Positions 4,065-21,485 of a DNA stretch of 21,485 bases are shown in pieces. Each line of letters opens with the position of its first letter. Position 1 is the first letter of the stretch. Location: the NCBI GenBank assembly GCA_018896675.1, contig JAHIMK010000018.1:1-21485 (forward strand), given 5' to 3'. Below the pieces are notes generated by a model. That model was not told where the DNA came from, searched no databases, and was given only the letters and a program-made list of their open reading frames with translations. The position numbers and the translations under genes are program-made. Source of the stretch: Nanobdellota archaeon. GTDB taxonomy: Archaea; Nanobdellota; Nanobdellia; SCGC-AAA011-G17; GW2011-AR17.

Positions 4065-4900
4065 AATATTTTTTTCAATTCCTTTATTCTTGTATCATAC
4101 TCTATAGAAAACCTAAACAAATTCCAAAAAACTTTCTGCAGCCAGGCAATCCATTCCTTATCATGAATTTCATAAAAAATCCTCTTGTTTTTCTCGATTT
4201 CATTCAGCTTATATTTATGTAAATACTCTTCAACTTTAAACTGCGCAAAATCATCATCAATAATTAGCCCTCTTAATGGCTGATAACAATGCCTAATTTC
4301 AATAAGATTTGGATATTTTTTAATCAAAAGCAAAAGCTGATTGATGTTTTTGATTGAAGTTACAGTTATTCTTGTTAATATCTTAAATTGAACTTTTCTC
4401 TTAAGCAACTCTTCCATAACAGACAAAACTTTTTCACCGTTTTCTTCTATATTTGTAAAAGACAGATTCCCGGAGAAAAAATATATATGGTTCTTTGCTT
4501 TACGCATAGATGAAATTAAGTTTTGATTCTCAGGCAATAGGGATTCATTAAATTCTTCGGAAAATACTTTTTTCTTGTCTTCTAGGATATATTGGTATAT
4601 TTCCATGAAATCAAAATCATCTTTCCATCTTCCTACTTTAATTTGATTAAAAAAATTCTCCTTTAGATCATCTGTATGCATTGATCCAGCATGATTATAG
4701 AATACAATTTTCAATGCGCCTTGTGTTCCTTTCCTAAATACCTTAATGTCTATCTGGCCTGTCTGTTCTTTAATTTGTTTTACATAAGAATCTGCCGTGA
4801 GCCAACTTTTTTTTATTAATTTAGACACTTCTTGGATTGTTTTAGGCTCAGCTTTGACAAAGCTTACAATTTTCTTTATATCTTGCTCTTTTAGAACCAT
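4061..4900 (-). CDS. putative transcriptional regulator, N-terminal winged helix plus uncharacterised C-terminal domain (TrmB-like architecture, weak)
   Basis: The N-terminal segment TIQEVSKLIKKSWLTADSYVKQIKEQ looks like a wHTH. The C-terminal IRHCYQPLRGLIIDDDFAQF resembles the TrmB C-terminal domain. The gene is divergent from the radical SAM cassette. The product call is tentative. Confidence 0.35.
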   Translation of the reverse strand: MVLKEQDIKKIVSFVKAEPKTIQEVSKLIKKSWLTADSYVKQIKEQTGQIDIKVFRKGTQGALKIVFYNHAGSMHTDDLKENFFNQIKVGRWKDDFDFMEIYQYILEDKKKVFSEEFNESLLPENQNLISSMRKAKNHIYFFSGNLSFTNIEENGEKVLSVMEELLKRKVQFKILTRITVTSIKNINQLLLLIKKYPNLIEIRHCYQPLRGLIIDDDFAQFKVEEYLHKYKLNEIEKNKRIFYEIHDKEWIAWLQKVFWNLFRFSIEYDTRIKELKKIF

Positions 4901-4935
4901 TTTAGATAATGAGATTTCATTAGTTTATATATCTT

Positions 4936-4990
4936 ATTAAACACTATTATAAAAAAATTAAACCTAAGTTTATCTTTAATTAAACACTAT
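4936..4990. promoter_or_regulatory. divergent promoter region with a 12-nt direct repeat (candidate operator)
   Basis: attaaacactat occurs at 4936-4947 and 4979-4990, 43 nt apart, each adjacent to cttatta. TATA-like atatataaac sits on the minus strand about 25-35 nt from ATG 4900. AGGTGA precedes ATG 5010. Confidence 0.35.
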
Positions 4991-5009
4991 AATCTTATTA
5001 GGTGATAAA

Positions 5010-5495
5010 ATGATGTCATTGATTGCTTCACAATTCGGTGTAATGGAAGAAGAAAAAGGCAAGGGTGTTGACTTAGAGGCATTTGTTAAAGCGCTTAAAA
5101 TTAGATATGAGAATTCACGAAGCCCTTCGTATCCTGGATGTGATTCATATCGTCTTGGTCCTGTAGAAACAGGAAGAATATGCCAAGCAATAGAAGAAGC
5201 AAAGGAACTAAACATTCTTTATCAGGAAGAATCAAGAGTTTATTTTGTTTGGGATGAAATGGAATCTATGCCTGAAAGTTACTTTCTTCATTATTTGAAA
5301 AAAATGGGTAAAGAGATAAGCAAAGATTGTAAAAATCTTTCTATAAGCCTAAGGCATTATAAAAATTTCCTTGAGAATATCAAAAAAATCAAAAGGAACA
5401 CTAAAGATATTGATGATGAAGTTATTTCTATTGATAATGTTATAGAAAAATTAAATGAACAAGAAATTAAAGGAGCTAAAAATGGCTTGCATTGA
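5010..5495 (+). CDS. hypothetical protein, first gene of the radical SAM cassette
   Basis: 161-aa ORF with AGGTGA 4 nt before the ATG. Its end overlaps the next gene. No family recognised. Confidence 0.55.
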   Translation: MMSLIASQFGVMEEEKGKGVDLEAFVKALKIRYENSRSPSYPGCDSYRLGPVETGRICQAIEEAKELNILYQEESRVYFVWDEMESMPESYFLHYLKKMGKEISKDCKNLSISLRHYKNFLENIKKIKRNTKDIDDEVISIDNVIEKLNEQEIKGAKNGLH

Positions 5496-10254: not shown

Positions 10255-11103
10255 ATGAGAGAAATATTGTTTAGACCAAATAAAGAATTAATAAAATTAT
10301 TATGTGATAAAGAGAATATTCCCATTCTAGAGCATATTATTGAAAGAGATGGAAAAGAATTTGAAAGATTAAAACAACTTAAAGAAAAAGGATTAATAAA
10401 TCTTGGGGAAAAAGTTAGAAAAAAAGAATTTAAAGATATTTGTTATGAAATAAAAGCAGAAGTTGATGGTTTATTAGACATACAAAATACTATTTTACCA
10501 AAGACTAAACAAAGAACTTTTTTTTCTAATGATTTAGGATTATTTTTGGCTTATATTGCAACCCCTGCTTTAATTAAAAGTGGTAGACTTTCTGATGTTT
10601 TATTTATGGGATTAGCTATAACTATGGTAAAATTATCAATGTATAATTCTTCATATCACTACATTTTCAAAAGAATTAAAATAACCAAACAAGATAAATA
10701 TTTAACAAAAATTATATTTGCCCATGAGTATACTCATTTTTTACAACATAAAATCCTTAATTGTGATTTTCAAAAGCATAAGATGTTTACTGAAGGCCAT
10801 GCAATAGGAGTAGAGAAAACTTTAGTTAATTTATGTTCTGAACCAGAACAAAAAGATAATTTTCTTTATTCTGAACTTAAACAAAGGTTCTCAGGATTAA
10901 AACAAGCCTATTATTCCTTATGTGATAGACTGAATGTTAAATGTCATGAAAGTCTTTTAAATATAGATAAACCTTTTGGAAATAAATTAAAACGTTTTTT
11001 TAAAAGAGGATCTTTTCTGTATCATGATGCAGGAAACGCTTTATTCCAAATATATGAAGAAATTCATGGCAAAGATATTTACAAACAAATTTTACAGGCT
11101 TAA
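10255..11103 (+). CDS. putative HExxH zinc metallopeptidase-like protein
   Basis: AHEYTHFLQH is an HExxH motif with a downstream E in FTEGHAIGVEK. Two hydrophobic segments precede the motif. The gene starts 2 nt after the surface-protein stop. Family not identified. Confidence 0.4.
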   Translation: MREILFRPNKELIKLLCDKENIPILEHIIERDGKEFERLKQLKEKGLINLGEKVRKKEFKDICYEIKAEVDGLLDIQNTILPKTKQRTFFSNDLGLFLAYIATPALIKSGRLSDVLFMGLAITMVKLSMYNSSYHYIFKRIKITKQDKYLTKIIFAHEYTHFLQHKILNCDFQKHKMFTEGHAIGVEKTLVNLCSEPEQKDNFLYSELKQRFSGLKQAYYSLCDRLNVKCHESLLNIDKPFGNKLKRFFKRGSFLYHDAGNALFQIYEEIHGKDIYKQILQA

Positions 11104-12101
11104 GCTTGTTTTAACAATTCTATAAATTTATGCAATGTATCTCTATAAAGTGTGAAGCCACCAGCTTTTTCATGGCCACCACCAATAAAACCTTCAATCT
11201 TATCATTAAAAGAACTAAGAAATTCACCTGCATCAAAATCAGAATCTTCAGGAACTCTTAAACTGCCAATAATTTCTTCTTGATATAAGTTCATGACCAT
11301 TATTGGTTTATCTTTAATATGTCGGGCAGCTATAACTCCCTGAACATTATATTCGTCTTCAATAATAATATAATCAATTCTACTTGTAGATTCTATTTTA
11401 ACTTCTTGATTATATCTGTCTTTTAAAATTTGTTTATAACCTTGCAACTCTAATGCTAAAGGATGTAAATTGTTTACAAAAGGTTTGTAGCAGTCTATAC
11501 ATTTTAATAATTCTAAAGGTATGTCGCCACACCAATGTAATCTTTTACCTGTATTTAATGCAGAAACATATTTTTCTATTTCTAAATAATAACCATCTGT
11601 AAAGTAGCTATTTCTTTTTTCCATCATTTCTGGGATTACTTCGTTTGCTGTAATGTGTAGTTCAGGAGGAATGTCTTCCCTATTGCCACCATCTCCAAAG
11701 TAGCCCATTAATGTTAAGAAAATTAAGTAAGGATCTTTTGTGCCTTGTAAAAAGTTTTCATAGATTAGTAAAGTGTTAGATTGTTTGCTTGGATCATGTA
11801 TTGTTAAATGGAATTTATCAGCATCTTCATTAGGATGATGGTCAATGTAAATGATTTTAATAGGCAAATCTAAAAGCTCTGTTGAAGCTGCAATATCTGT
11901 GCAGATGACAACTTCTGTATCTTCTAAGATATCTTCTTTTTCTATTAAGAAAGGTTTACCTTTTGTCATTGTTTCTATGTTTAAGGCAAATGGTTTTACT
12001 AGGTGGTACATTAAAGCAGCAGAAGCTACACCGTCTGTGTCCCAGTGCCCACAAATCTGGACATGTTTTCCTTTAACCATCCCTATTAATTTTTCTTTCA
12101 T
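11100..12101 (-). CDS. DHH/DHHA1 family phosphoesterase (NrnA/RecJ-like)
   Basis: GHWDTDGVASA, the DHH motif in YIDHHP, and the DHHA1 motif GGGHEKAGGF. Confidence 0.8.
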   Translation of the reverse strand: MKEKLIGMVKGKHVQICGHWDTDGVASAALMYHLVKPFALNIETMTKGKPFLIEKEDILEDTEVVICTDIAASTELLDLPIKIIYIDHHPNEDADKFHLTIHDPSKQSNTLLIYENFLQGTKDPYLIFLTLMGYFGDGGNREDIPPELHITANEVIPEMMEKRNSYFTDGYYLEIEKYVSALNTGKRLHWCGDIPLELLKCIDCYKPFVNNLHPLALELQGYKQILKDRYNQEVKIESTSRIDYIIIEDEYNVQGVIAARHIKDKPIMVMNLYQEEIIGSLRVPEDSDFDAGEFLSSFNDKIEGFIGGGHEKAGGFTLYRDTLHKFIELLKQA

Positions 12102-12133
12102 TTGAACTTAGAAAAAAGAATTCATTTATTAAG

Positions 12134-12769
12134 CTATCTGCTTGTTTTGACATTAACTCTTTTACAATATTTTTTAATTGTACATTTAGAACAAAACGGA
12201 CTTATAGGTTTGCATATCGTTTGTCCGTGTTTAACAAATAATTCATTAATGTCTAACCAATATTTTTTAGGTATTAATTTCATTAATTGTAATTCTGTTT
12301 CTTCTGGACTTTTAGTTTTAATCCAACCTAACCTATTTGGTAATCTATGACAATGTGTGTCTATTGGTAATGCTGGAATGTTAAATGAGTGCGTTAAAAC
12401 TATGCCTGCAGTTTTTCTGCCAACACCTTTTATTGTTAACAATTCTTCCATTGTATTAGGAACTTTGCCTTTGTAATCTTTTATCAATTTTTTACTTGCT
12501 TCTCTCAAGCGTTTAGCTTTTGTTTTGTAAAAACTAATAGGATAAACTAATTTTTCAATTTGTTTAGAAGTTAATTTTAACATTTTTTGTGGAGTGTTAA
12601 CTTTTTTGTATAGTTGTTTAGCAATAGGATATGTTACTTCGTCTTTTGTTCTGTGAGATAACATACAACTTATCAAAACATAAAAAGGATTTTTAGAACC
12701 AGATTTTGCTAAGAAAAAGGTTTTACCATACTCTTTTTTTAATAATTGAATTACTTTTGTTACATTCAT
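12134..12769 (-). CDS. nth: endonuclease III (Nth), HhH-GPD DNA glycosylase with 4Fe-4S loop
   Basis: HhH motif LLTIKGVGRKTAGIVL, the catalytic region PIDTH, and C-x6-C-x2-C-x5-C in CKPISPFCSKCTIKKYC. Confidence 0.85.
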   Translation of the reverse strand: MNVTKVIQLLKKEYGKTFFLAKSGSKNPFYVLISCMLSHRTKDEVTYPIAKQLYKKVNTPQKMLKLTSKQIEKLVYPISFYKTKAKRLREASKKLIKDYKGKVPNTMEELLTIKGVGRKTAGIVLTHSFNIPALPIDTHCHRLPNRLGWIKTKSPEETELQLMKLIPKKYWLDINELFVKHGQTICKPISPFCSKCTIKKYCKRVNVKTSR

Positions 12770-12878
12770 TAGTTAATTAAACAATCTTCCAATTAAAAAG
12801 ATTTCTTTTAATATTTTCGAAAATTTGTTCACAAAACCGGACAAGAAAATAAATAGTAGTTCTTTATCTAAAATCAAA

Positions 12879-13973
12879 ATGAAAAAAGAGGTAATAAAAA
12901 AAGGATTTAGCAATATTTATGATAACATCAAAATAATAATTGAACAAGCAAGAAACAAAACTTTCAAAGTAATTAATTCTGTTATGGTTCAAGCTTATTG
13001 GGAAATAGGAAGAACTATTGTTGAAGAAGAACAAAAAGGTAAGAAAAGAGCTGATTATGGCAAATATTTGATAAAAGAGCTTTCTGAAAGATTAATAAAA
13101 GAATATGGTTCAGGGTTTAAAGAAAGAAATTTATATGAAATGCGTAGATTTTACTTAACTTTTCCAAAATGGAACGCACTGCGTGCAAAATCTCAAAAAA
13201 GCCAGAAATTGCACCCAGTGGGTGCAAAATCTCAAAATATTTATGATAAATTAAGCTGGACCCATTATAGATTCTTAATGCGAATAAAAAAAGAAAATGC
13301 AAGAAAATTTTATCTTATAGAAACAGCTAAGAATCAATGGAGTAAAAGAGAACTTGAAAGACAAATAAATAGTTTACTTTATGAAAGGCTTAGCTTAAGT
13401 AAAAATAAAAAAGAAGTAAAAGAATTTGCTAAAAAAGGACAGATAGTAAAAAAACCAGAAGATATTATAAAAGACCCTTATGTTTTAGAATTCTTAGATT
13501 TAAATGAAAATAAAAAATATCTTGAAAAAGACCTAGAAAGTTTACTTATAAGTAAACTCAAAAGTTTTTTATTAGAACTGGGAAAAGGATTTTCATTGGT
13601 TTCAAGGCAAAAAAGAATTAATGTAAGTAATGAACATTATTACATTGATCTTGTTTTTTACAATTATATTTTAAAATGTTTTGTATTAATTGATTTAAAA
13701 GTTGGTAAATTAAGCCATAAAGACATAGGACAAATGGATTTTTATGTAAGATATTTTGAAAAAGAAATTAAGCAAGAAGATGATAATCCTACAATTGGAT
13801 TAATCCTTTGCTCTGACAAAGACGATACAATGATAAAGTACACATTATTAGAAGATAATGACAAAATATTTGCTTCAAAATATAAACTTTGTTTACCTAC
13901 AGAAAAACAATTAAAAAAAGAATTAACAAATGAAAGATTAAAAATCGAAATGGAAAAAAAACTAAAAAATTAA
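12879..13973 (+). CDS. DUF1016/YhcG-family PD-(D/E)xK nuclease-like protein
   Basis: YWEIGR, LSWTHYRFLM, KDPYVLEFLDL, and the core YIDLVFYN..FVLIDLKVGKL typical of the family. I prefer ATG 12879 to the TTG at 12825 used by the track. Confidence 0.75.
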   Translation: MKKEVIKKGFSNIYDNIKIIIEQARNKTFKVINSVMVQAYWEIGRTIVEEEQKGKKRADYGKYLIKELSERLIKEYGSGFKERNLYEMRRFYLTFPKWNALRAKSQKSQKLHPVGAKSQNIYDKLSWTHYRFLMRIKKENARKFYLIETAKNQWSKRELERQINSLLYERLSLSKNKKEVKEFAKKGQIVKKPEDIIKDPYVLEFLDLNENKKYLEKDLESLLISKLKSFLLELGKGFSLVSRQKRINVSNEHYYIDLVFYNYILKCFVLIDLKVGKLSHKDIGQMDFYVRYFEKEIKQEDDNPTIGLILCSDKDDTMIKYTLLEDNDKIFASKYKLCLPTEKQLKKELTNERLKIEMEKKLKN

Positions 13974-14023
13974 ACTTTTTTTAATTTAGCCACATGAAAA
14001 CCTTAGTGTCATTATCTTGAGAC
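13970..14023 (-). pseudogene. relic copy of the 3' end of the RNA methyltransferase gene (frame broken)
   Basis: The reverse complement tctcaagataatgacactaaggttttcatgtggctaaattaaaaaaagtttaa aligns with the real end cctcaagataatgatactgaaggattttatgttgctaaaataaaaaagtgttaa (14762-14815). Identity is about 80% with indels, and there is an identical 13-nt run 14009-14021 = 14802-14814. Confidence 0.8.
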
Positions 14024-14068
14024 ACATATAATTAAAAAAGATTTCTACAAAAGATCTACTTTGATCAA

Positions 14069-14716
14069 TTATAATTCTAATCGAACATTTTTATATCTTG
14101 CCATTAAATCTTTAACTACATCTTTTGTCCATCCGGTAGTATCCTTCTTTTTAAGTTCATCCCAATAACCTTTTTTTTGTAATGTCTCAATTATTTCATA
14201 AGTAGTCATATTAGCATGGCCAAAAGGCCCAACACCACTAATTGCAAAATAAGACACAAGAGAATTAGGTTTTAAATCCTGGTAATATCTTCCTTCCATT
14301 TCAGTCATTTGATAAAGCATATCTTCTCTATTTTCAAAGCCATCTTTTAATATTTCTTTATCAGTAAGTTCCTCAAGCGGGCAAACTGCAATGTAATTTA
14401 ATCTCATATAATCTCTTGCAATTTTACCTTTATTAAACTCAGAACTTTCAAAGATTAAGAGATTATCAGATAAGGGCAAATAGATATGCTCAGGTTTATA
14501 TCTTATAGTTCCTAATTTAAAGGAACCATTAAGAAAAGGTTTACTTTTTGAATTAATAGGCATAGCATCAAAATGATGTTCACCTCTGAATAATAACCAA
14601 GGAGAAATACGCAGTTTTAATCCTTCCTTAATTAAGTCTTCCATAAATTTCTTACCTTCAAAACCCATATTTTCATCGAAACAACCATAAGTTATTTTTA
14701 AAATTTTTCTTGCCAT
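14069..14716 (-). CDS. hypothetical protein (215 aa), cargo of the insert at the methyltransferase 3' end
   Basis: Long ORF with its own TATA-like ttatataaac about 30 nt upstream. The segment ELTDKEILKDGFENREDMLYQM resembles the end of ASCH-type domains only weakly. Product not assigned. Confidence 0.5.
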   Translation of the reverse strand: MARKILKITYGCFDENMGFEGKKFMEDLIKEGLKLRISPWLLFRGEHHFDAMPINSKSKPFLNGSFKLGTIRYKPEHIYLPLSDNLLIFESSEFNKGKIARDYMRLNYIAVCPLEELTDKEILKDGFENREDMLYQMTEMEGRYYQDLKPNSLVSYFAISGVGPFGHANMTTYEIIETLQKKGYWDELKKKDTTGWTKDVVKDLMARYKNVRLEL

Positions 14717-14761
14717 GAACTACTAAAAACTATTAGAAGTTTATATAATTTTGCTAAAAGA

Positions 14762-15670
14762 TTAACACTTTTTTATTTTAGCAACATAAAATCCTTCAGT
14801 ATCATTATCTTGAGGCCAGATTCTTAATGTCTTCTTAACCTCTGAAGAATAAGATTTGCCTTTAAACTCTTCAATAGGCTTTCCACGTTTAATGTCAAAA
14901 TCAAAATTTTCAACCTTAGCATTGTCAAATTCATTCAATATAAAGTCAACAACACCCTCATTTTCATCTGGCTCCAAAGTGCAAGTACTATAAACTAAAG
15001 TCCCACCTACTTTTAACTTGTTAAATGCTATTTTTACTAACTGTTTTTGTAAGCCACACATCTTTCTTGAAAATTCTGGATTCCAAATTTGGATAGTTTT
15101 CAAAGATTTTCTTATTGTGCCTATTCCTGAACAAGGAGCATCTACCAAAATTTTATCAAACTCTAAATTAGTATTAGCAAAGTATCTTCCTTCCATTAAT
15201 GTAATTAAAGCATTAGAAATCCCACATCTCTCCAAATTATAAACTAAAGGTTTCATTCTGTCTATTCTATTATCATTCGCAATTAACAAGCCTTGGTTTT
15301 GCATCATTGCTGCCATTTGTGAAGTTTTTGAACCAGGAGATGCACACATGTCTAAAACAAGTTCATCTTTTTGTGGATTTAAAACAATTGGCGGAATCAT
15401 TGATGCTGCACCTTGAATATAGATATATCCTAAAAAATGTTCATTTAAATTTCCTATACCATAACCTTCTAACCAAAAGCCTTCTTTGCACCATGGAACT
15501 TGTTTTAAGTTCATATCTGTAAAACGTTTTTTTATTTCTGCTATAGAAGTTTTTAATGTATTAACTCTAATAGATTTTCTTAAAGGTTTTAATGAATATT
15601 CTAAAAATGCTTCAATATCTGTTAATCCGTGGTATTGTTCAATAAATTTCTTTTTCCATTCAGGAGCCAT
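14762..15670 (-). CDS. NOL1/NOP2/Sun-family RNA cytosine-C5 methyltransferase
   Basis: SAM-binding LDMCASPGSKT, the catalytic motifs DAPCSGIGTIRK and LVYSTCTLEPDENE. I prefer the start at ATG 15670 (MAPEWKK), which is 26 nt from the TATA, so the transcript is probably leaderless. Confidence 0.85.
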   Translation of the reverse strand: MAPEWKKKFIEQYHGLTDIEAFLEYSLKPLRKSIRVNTLKTSIAEIKKRFTDMNLKQVPWCKEGFWLEGYGIGNLNEHFLGYIYIQGAASMIPPIVLNPQKDELVLDMCASPGSKTSQMAAMMQNQGLLIANDNRIDRMKPLVYNLERCGISNALITLMEGRYFANTNLEFDKILVDAPCSGIGTIRKSLKTIQIWNPEFSRKMCGLQKQLVKIAFNKLKVGGTLVYSTCTLEPDENEGVVDFILNEFDNAKVENFDFDIKRGKPIEEFKGKSYSSEVKKTLRIWPQDNDTEGFYVAKIKKC

Positions 15671-15691
15671 AATTATAATTATATAGATAAG

Positions 15692-15700
15692 TTTTATAAA
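15692..15700. promoter_or_regulatory. TATA element in a 47-nt divergent intergenic region
   Basis: ttttataaa is centred about 26 nt from ATG 15670 (minus strand) and about 22 nt from ATG 15718 (plus strand). A second AT-rich box ttatatag at 15679-15686 could serve the plus-strand gene. Confidence 0.4.
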
Positions 15701-15717
15701 GCTATTCCTCTTCAAAT

Positions 15718-20360: not shown

Positions 20361-21485
20361 ATTTTAAAGACATATAAGTTTAGGCTGTATCCATCTAAGG
20401 AGCAAGATAAAAAATTACATTATGCATTAGCTCTTGCCCGTTTTGCATACAATGAACAGCTCAACTTGAAGATTCAATCTTACAAAGAAGATGGTAAGAG
20501 CCTTACTAATTTTGACCTTAATAATTGCCTTTTATCTCTTAAAGCAAAGTATCCTGAGCTTAAGAAAATTCATTCTCAAATTCTGCAAGATGTGAGCAAG
20601 AGAGTCTCTTTAGCATTTCAGCATTTCTTTCGCAGAGTTAAGAGTAAAGAAAAACCTGGTTTTCCAAGATTTAAATGTAAGAATCGTTATCATTCACTAA
20701 CTTTTCCCCAATCAGGATTTTGTTTAGATGAAAAGCTGACTATATCCAAGATAGGGGAGATTTCTATAGTCAAACACAGGCATGTCAAAGGTAAGATAAA
20801 GACAATGACCATCAAGAAATCAAGCAGTAATAAATGGCATGCTTATTTCTGTGTTGAATATGAACCTCAAAAGAAAGTTAAAGTAAACTTTAATGTCTTA
20901 GGTATTGATTTAGGGCTGCATCATTTTTATGCAGACAGCGATGGCAATATAGTAAATAATCCCCGGTACTTAAGAAATTCTGAAGAGAAATTATCGCATT
21001 TGCAAAAATTTCATTCAAGGAAAAAGAAAGGAAGCCGAAACAAGCAGAGATTAAGGCTTAAAGTTGCCCTGCTTTATGAAAAAATATTAAACCAGAGGAA
21101 TGATTTTCTGCATAAGCAAACAAGAATGTTAGCTAACTTGTATTCCATCATAGCTGTAGAAAAACTTTCAATAAAAAATATGATACATAATAAATATTTA
21201 TCAAAGTCCATAAGCGATGCAGGCTGGTATAAATTCCTGCAGATTCTTGCCTACAAAGTGGAAGAGACTGGAGGCAAGATACTGGAAGTTAGTGCCAGAG
21301 GGACATCGCAATATTGTATTTGTGGGAATAAGGCGAAAAAAACTTTGGCTGTAAGAGTCCACAAATGCGATAAATGTGGTATTGAGATAGACAGAGATAT
21401 TATGTCTGCAATAATAATTAAGTTTACCGCCTTAAACGGCGCTACCGCAGGAAGTGCGGTAAGTAACGCTTTGGGAGATGAAAGG
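20361..21485 (+). CDS. tnpB: TnpB (IS200/IS605-family OrfB, RNA-guided RuvC nuclease), 3'-partial, not in the ORF track
   Basis: The frame is open from 20355 to the window edge (375 codons from 20361). N-terminal KTYKFRLYPSKEQ. RuvC-I GIDLGL, RuvC-II IAVEKLS, zinc finger CICGNK..(x10)..CDKCG, RuvC-III IDRDIMSA. There is no ATG. AGGTGA (20349-20354) lies 6 nt before ATT 20361. TATA at 20319-20326. Confidence 0.85.
   Translation, partial: MLKTYKFRLYPSKEQDKKLHYALALARFAYNEQLNLKIQSYKEDGKSLTNFDLNNCLLSLKAKYPELKKIHSQILQDVSKRVSLAFQHFFRRVKSKEKPGFPRFKCKNRYHSLTFPQSGFCLDEKLTISKIGEISIVKHRHVKGKIKTMTIKKSSSNKWHAYFCVEYEPQKKVKVNFNVLGIDLGLHHFYADSDGNIVNNPRYLRNSEEKLSHLQKFHSRKKKGSRNKQRLRLKVALLYEKILNQRNDFLHKQTRMLANLYSIIAVEKLSIKNMIHNKYLSKSISDAGWYKFLQILAYKVEETGGKILEVSARGTSQYCICGNKAKKTLAVRVHKCDKCGIEIDRDIMSAIIIKFTALNGATAGSAVSNALGDER

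What the first reader, a model, noticed from the sequence alone, without database searches (positions are those of the whole stretch)
13962..14817. Second 3'-end duplication: RNA methyltransferase, single-gene insert, then a frameshifted relic of the methyltransferase end
Seen, on the minus strand: the NOL1/NOP2/Sun methyltransferase ends at 14762 (..WPQDNDTEGFYVAKIKKC*). It is followed by a 215-aa gene with its own TATA-like box (14716-14069). A relic of the methyltransferase's last ~17 codons follows at 14023-13970, about 80% identical, with indels that break the frame and an identical 13-nt run (14802-14814 = 14009-14021). Similarity continues about 10 nt past the stop (ctaaaagattaa versus ctaaaaaattaa), so the duplication includes the last codons of the convergent DUF1016 gene. 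The relic stop overlaps the DUF1016 stop as TTAA (13970-13973). Inference: the ancestral arrangement was DUF1016 and the methyltransferase convergent with overlapped stops. A ~0.73-kb single-gene cassette was then inserted with duplication of about 55-65 bp of the target. No recombinase is present.
Basis: partly seen in the sequence, partly recalled or inferred. Interest (0 to 1): 0.62.

Follow-up and report, generated by a model that had tools for sequence, protein, structure and literature searches.

The report
Relic gene end from local gene swap
A small symbiotic-type (DPANN) archaeon carries a decaying second copy of the last ~20 codons of an RNA methyltransferase gene. The copy was left when the neighbouring 215-aa gene moved into the tail-to-tail junction of two genes, an ordinary local rearrangement that follows a pattern recurring at gene 3' ends in this genome.

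Summary
Window 14754-14827 (end of the RsmB/F-type methyltransferase, plus 12 nt) is repeated at 13962-14035, with ~84% identity, three frame-breaking indels and a 13-nt identical run. The local score is 73, against 29±2.4 in shuffles. At least five independent assemblies show the same arrangement, so it is not an artefact.

DUF1016 and the methyltransferase were once convergent with overlapping stops, and the 215-aa gene (p215) was inserted there with a 62-74-nt target duplication and no recombinase.

p215 is not a newcomer, however. A sister lineage (~87% nt identity) has the order methyltransferase-DUF1016-p215-nth. Its p215 and DUF1016 show the same synonymous divergence as the flanking genes. 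The window's p215 block also carries a 17-nt copy of the nth-upstream sequence. So the two accessory genes swapped places.

The relic is far less diverged (8%) than neutral sites (30-40%), so the swap is younger than the split from the sister lineage. A more distant relative has methyltransferase and nth directly adjacent.

The most likely mechanism is a recombinase-independent copy-and-loss (template-switch type) rearrangement. Three rivals remain.

Earlier notes of this scan described related insertions on other contigs of this genome. Gene 3'-end duplications around small toxin-antitoxin or defence cargo recur here: 8 at stops, 0 at starts.

The parts
14762..15715 (-). RsmB/F (NOL1/NOP2/Sun-type) RNA m5C methyltransferase gene, intact
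   Evidence: Pfam PF01189 E 2.4e-53 and PF17125 E 9e-17. Orthologs were found in 40 of 41 related genomes.
14754..14827 (-). Functional copy of the duplicated segment (a1): the last ~20 codons of the methyltransferase, its stop, and 12 nt that copy the last codons of DUF1016
   Evidence: Local alignment and BLAST. The tail TAATCTTTTAGC is identical to the DUF1016 end of the sister lineage L022.
14030..14752 (-). Relocated p215 unit: own BRE/TATA promoter (TATA at 14740-14748), 215-aa ORF (14069-14716) and 3' flank
   Evidence: Aligns as one block with L022 4659-5368 at 76% identity. The ORF has only 6 protein clusters among 5.8 billion. One homolog gives a weak ASCH hit (E 0.013, below cut-off).
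14030..14046 (-). 17-nt copy of the nth-upstream sequence carried at the 3' edge of the p215 unit (AGAAATCTTTTTTAATT)
   Evidence: Matches window 12791-12806 at 16 of 17 positions. It is orthologous to the p215-3'-flank/nth-upstream segment of L022.
13962..14035 (-). Relic (a') of the methyltransferase 3' end, frameshifted, in native continuity with the DUF1016 stop (TTAA at 13970-13973)
   Evidence: It is 92% identical to the functional methyltransferase end of L022, against 84% to the window's own functional end.
12825..13973 (+). DUF1016/YhcG PD-(D/E)XK nuclease gene, a candidate single-gene defence protein and itself an accessory insert
   Evidence: Pfam PF06250 and PF17761. PADLOC PDC-S02 at E 1e-145. 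Absent from this position in G001 and G022. About 10 full or truncated copies occur in this genome.
12791..12837 (+). Seam between DUF1016 and nth: the resident copy of the 17-nt repeat (12791-12806) and a dispersed leader motif (12815-12837, TTTCGAAAATTTGTTCACAAAAC) upstream of DUF1016
   Evidence: In the sister lineage the p215 unit lies at this seam.
11100..12769 (-). nth (HhH-GPD glycosylase, 12134-12769) and DHH phosphoesterase (11100-12101), the conserved downstream partners of the methyltransferase
   Evidence: Pfam. They directly follow the methyltransferase in G022, with stop and start overlapping as TAATG.

Best explanation
What is shown. The interval between the methyltransferase and nth is a small accessory island. 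It is empty in a same-family relative and holds a different small ORF in the same-genus relative. In the common ancestor of this organism and its sister lineage it held DUF1016 and then p215. DUF1016 was convergent with the methyltransferase, and their stops overlapped. After the split, in the window's lineage, the p215 unit came to lie in the methyltransferase/DUF1016 tail-to-tail junction. That unit comprises the promoter, the ORF, the 3' flank and 17 nt of nth-upstream sequence. The last 62-74 nt of the target now stand on both sides of it. This target stretch is the methyltransferase end plus the 12-nt DUF1016 end. The copy next to the methyltransferase body keeps the gene intact. The copy next to DUF1016 keeps that gene's stop and is otherwise decaying. 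The original p215 position is now vacant.

What is inferred. The event was a recombinase-independent, replication- or repair-associated copy. Synthesis left the end of the methyltransferase and jumped to the p215 promoter. It copied p215 into the nth-upstream sequence and then jumped back to about 70 nt before the methyltransferase stop. The old p215 copy was either skipped in the same event or deleted later. A whole-segment tandem duplication followed by two losses is a variant of the same idea. The short inverted repeat formed by the two Lys-rich gene ends (TTGCTAAAA ... TTTTAGCAA, 14750-14784) may make this junction fragile.
For: Synteny. G022 has methyltransferase-nth-DHH contiguous, and G001 has a 275-bp gap with another ORF. 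L022 (identical to L028, and sharing the arrangement with L023) has methyltransferase-DUF1016-p215-nth.

Orthology. The 4-fold-site identity of p215 (0.65) and of DUF1016 (0.74) lies within the range of the flanking genes (0.56-0.74).

Polarity. The relic differs from L022's functional end at only ~5 of 66 positions. 4-fold sites differ by 26-44%, and non-coding sequence by about 30% as judged by eye from the alignments.

Signs of copying. Two direct-repeat pairs interleave: a1 ... n' | a' ... n. The segment missing at the old site (L022 ~4641-5353) and the segment present at the new site (L022 4659-5370) are offset by ~18 nt. That offset fits copy plus loss better than a clean cut-and-paste.

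Independent scar. The sister lineage has a young scar at the same junction: a 67-nt dispersed repeat plus a perfect 26-nt copy of its own p215 end. This looks like a short templated insertion.

No enzyme signature. No recombinase gene, no terminal inverted repeats, no shared core at insert ends, and variable repeat extents.
Against: No intermediate with two p215 copies has been seen. The three template jumps or the extra deletions are inferred, not observed. The iscS event (81-nt duplication, empty site in G001) and the events in L052 and L062 carry cargo that is not from the same locus. A purely local copy model does not cover those cases without a template elsewhere in the cell. The functional end (a1) carries ~5.5 changes not shared with the relic, and no shared derived changes were found. 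That is somewhat more than expected if a1 is a recent copy of the native end (small numbers). The microhomologies at the junctions are only 2-4 nt in AT-rich sequence and prove nothing.
Confidence: 0.5

Rival explanations
1. Homology-anchored import from a related strain (homology-facilitated illegitimate recombination, or Campbell-type single crossover). Incoming DNA carried a methyltransferase 3' part followed directly by p215. It recombined homologously inside the conserved methyltransferase gene. Its far end joined illegitimately ~70 nt before the recipient's stop. Under this model the functional end is donor DNA and the relic is the recipient's native end.
For: It explains the genome-wide features in one step. 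Relics lie at 3' ends of conserved genes (8 at stops versus 0 at starts). Repeat length varies (45-196 nt here). No core and no recombinase are found. Cargo is foreign at iscS and in L052 and L062. Some repeat pairs are already 84% diverged while others are 99% identical. The functional end has ~5.5 private changes and shares none with the relic. The relic also shares GGT with L022 where the functional end has GGA, as G001 does. p215 is the most diverged gene of the block (78% nt identity, against 83-90% for the other genes compared).
Against: It needs a donor haplotype (methyltransferase + 12-nt DUF1016 tail + p215) that has not been observed, plus a separate loss of the recipient's own p215. 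That makes three events. The 4-fold divergence of p215 is not raised. The methyltransferase 3' half still groups firmly with L022 (40 sites), and the asymmetry test is not significant (p 0.34).
Confidence: 0.2
2. p215 is a mobile cassette that a recombinase or nuclease encoded elsewhere excises, for example as a circle. It is then re-inserted at staggered cuts ~70 nt apart, giving a long target-site duplication. This would belong to the cassette system that earlier notes proposed for other contigs of this genome.
For: The block moved as one unit with its promoter and 3' flank. The p215 family sits as a single gene in unrelated contexts in other archaea: FtsZ/FKBP, and HTH/FEN1. The genome encodes three tyrosine recombinases, about 10 DUF1016 nuclease copies, and dispersed 70-nt and 23-nt seam repeats.
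Against: Neither p215 junction carries a seam repeat (R70) or the leader motif. No direct repeats flank p215 in the other contexts. No conserved end sequences or inverted repeats were found. The removed and inserted segments are offset by ~18 nt. The duplication length is not fixed, as a ruler-type enzyme would give.
Confidence: 0.15
3. Remnant of a classical integrase-driven integrative element whose attP carried a replacement methyltransferase 3' end (attL/attR), with the integrase since lost.
For: Gene 3' ends are typical integrase targets. A 13-nt identical run lies inside the repeat. The same gene end is duplicated in two other lineages.
Against: The insert is a 0.72-kb resident gene of the same locus. 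No integrase gene or fragment is present. Repeat boundaries differ among the three methyltransferase events: -74..+12, -65..-6 and -50..-5. The identical run coincides with the highly conserved QDND codons.
Confidence: 0.04

Closest known systems
Duplication-loss gene-order change (tandem duplication-random loss) and template-switch rearrangements (FoSTeS/MMBIR-type); from my own knowledge of the literature, not tested experimentally here
   Same: Two neighbouring genes change order without inversion. A novel junction joins the downstream flank of one unit to a point upstream of the other. The direct repeats interleave. Pseudogenised leftovers remain, and there is no recombinase.
   Different: It happens here in a ~1.4-Mb archaeal genome at kilobase scale. 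The duplicated leftover is only ~70 nt and preserves two overlapping gene ends. No intermediate has been observed.
Homology-facilitated illegitimate recombination and transformation-generated merodiploids in bacteria (PMC3240628; PMC3784515)
   Same: There is a one-sided homologous anchor in a conserved gene and an illegitimate joint at the other end. The process can leave partial duplications and needs no dedicated recombinase.
   Different: It is described for naturally transformable bacteria and for conjugation. Nothing is known for DPANN archaea, and the donor required here has not been seen.
Integrative elements that duplicate the 3' end of their target gene (attL/attR of tyrosine-integrase islands)
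   Same: The target gene stays intact through a replacement 3' end, a displaced relic lies on the far side of the insert, and there is a bias to 3' ends.
   Different: There is no integrase and no fixed att boundaries or core. The insert is under 1 kb and derives from the same locus.
Integrons and integrase-less attC clusters, including archaeal integrons
   Same: Single-gene units, often toxin-antitoxin or defence genes, are stacked at one site and can change order.
   Different: There is no attC-like folded site at these junctions and no IntI. The units carry their own promoters. The target is duplicated, which integron recombination does not do.

Membership tests
Integrase-driven integrative element (attL/attR at a gene 3' end) | Tyrosine or serine recombinase gene in or next to the element | tested here: not met
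   The insert holds only p215. No recombinase was found among the window ORFs scanned against Pfam; the window has a TnpB at 20466-21485. The genome's three PF00589 hits lie on other contigs.
Integrase-driven integrative element (attL/attR at a gene 3' end) | The same att core and boundaries in independent insertions at the same gene | tested here: not met
   The three methyltransferase-end duplications have different extents: window -74..+12, L052 -65..-6, L062 -50..-5.
Integrase-driven integrative element (attL/attR at a gene 3' end) | Inserted DNA is foreign to the locus | tested here: not met
   The p215 ortholog lies in the same interval in the sister lineage and shows flank-like synonymous divergence.
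Integron / attC cassette | Imperfect-palindrome attC site at the cassette boundary, and an IntI integrase | tested here: not met
   Only weak AT-rich inverted matches were found. No R70 or other seam repeat lies at the p215 junctions. Rfam finds only tRNAs.
IS / DDE transposon | Transposase, terminal inverted repeats, and a short fixed target-site duplication (2-15 bp) | tested here: not met
   There are no terminal inverted repeats and no transposase in the insert. The duplication is 62-74 nt here and 45-196 nt in other cases.
Diversity-generating retroelement (template/variable repeat at a gene 3' end) | Mismatches confined to adenines of the template repeat; reverse transcriptase nearby | tested here: not met
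   Mismatches are of all kinds and include three indels. No reverse transcriptase was found among the window ORFs scanned. The target is a conserved housekeeping enzyme.
Duplication-loss / template-switch rearrangement | A novel junction joining the 3' flank of the moved unit to a point upstream of the target end, with interleaved direct repeats | tested here: met
   The junction is nth-upstream copy | relic at about 14030-14035. The repeat pairs are 14754-14827/13962-14035 and 14030-14046/12791-12806.
Duplication-loss / template-switch rearrangement | An intermediate carrying both copies of the moved gene | not testable with these tools
   The public contigs found show only the two end states.
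Homology-facilitated illegitimate recombination | The functional end, and DNA up to a crossover point, is of donor ancestry while the relic is native | tested here: inconclusive
   Only about four informative sites exist in the repeat. The test of asymmetry between gene halves gives p 0.03 with a loose criterion and p 0.34 with a strict one.

The most novel reading that the evidence does not exclude
DPANN archaea of this group may have a general, so far undescribed way of gaining and reshuffling small genes. These genes are mostly toxin-antitoxin, defence and orphan genes. Under this reading, DNA is inserted at gene 3' ends and tail-to-tail junctions while 20-200 nt of the target is re-copied, so that tightly packed or overlapping neighbours both survive. 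The process would use no element-encoded recombinase. The methyltransferase relic, the iscS relic, the RadA relic and the L052 and L062 relics would all be footprints of it.
Probability: 0.25. Interest if true: 0.7.

Novelty: new variant of a known kind. Interest (0 to 1): 0.4.

Why it matters
The relic is a dated molecular fossil. It shows that in an ultra-compact archaeal genome two accessory genes can change order, and new genes can enter between overlapping convergent genes, without breaking either neighbour and without a visible mobile-element enzyme. If the recurring pattern reflects one mechanism, it would be a route of gene gain for the defence and toxin-antitoxin repertoire of DPANN archaea. 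It would also give a practical way to polarise and date rearrangements in metagenome-assembled genomes. In addition, it warns annotators that short pseudo-3'-ends and ORFs that read into them (as downstream of RadA on contig C146) are rearrangement scars.

Tried and rejected
1. Assembly artefact: rejected. Five other assemblies give the same arrangement at 99.6-100% identity.
2. Chance similarity: rejected by shuffles.
3. DGR template/variable repeat: rejected, because the mismatches are not adenine-specific and include indels.
4. IS or transposon: rejected, with no terminal inverted repeats and no transposase.
5. attC or integron site, R70 seam repeat, or 'dif-like' core at the p215 junctions: none found. 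R70 is absent from the window. The 23-nt core-like motif occurs only upstream of DUF1016 at 12815-12837.
6. Common core among the insert ends of nine events: none above chance.
7. Direct repeats around p215 homologs in other genomes: none.
8. Further relatives to polarise the swap: a scan of 240 genomes of the order, the metagenome scan and the DUF1016 protein search gave only the one sister lineage.
9. Function of p215: no Pfam, NCBIfam or PADLOC family. One homolog gives a weak ASCH hit. A profile search against PDB sequences found nothing. The AlphaFold model reached only pLDDT 54, so no fold search was run.
10. Test of donor versus native ancestry of the functional end: inconclusive.
12. 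G007's apparent methyltransferase-end fragment is only a 127-nt contig overlap.
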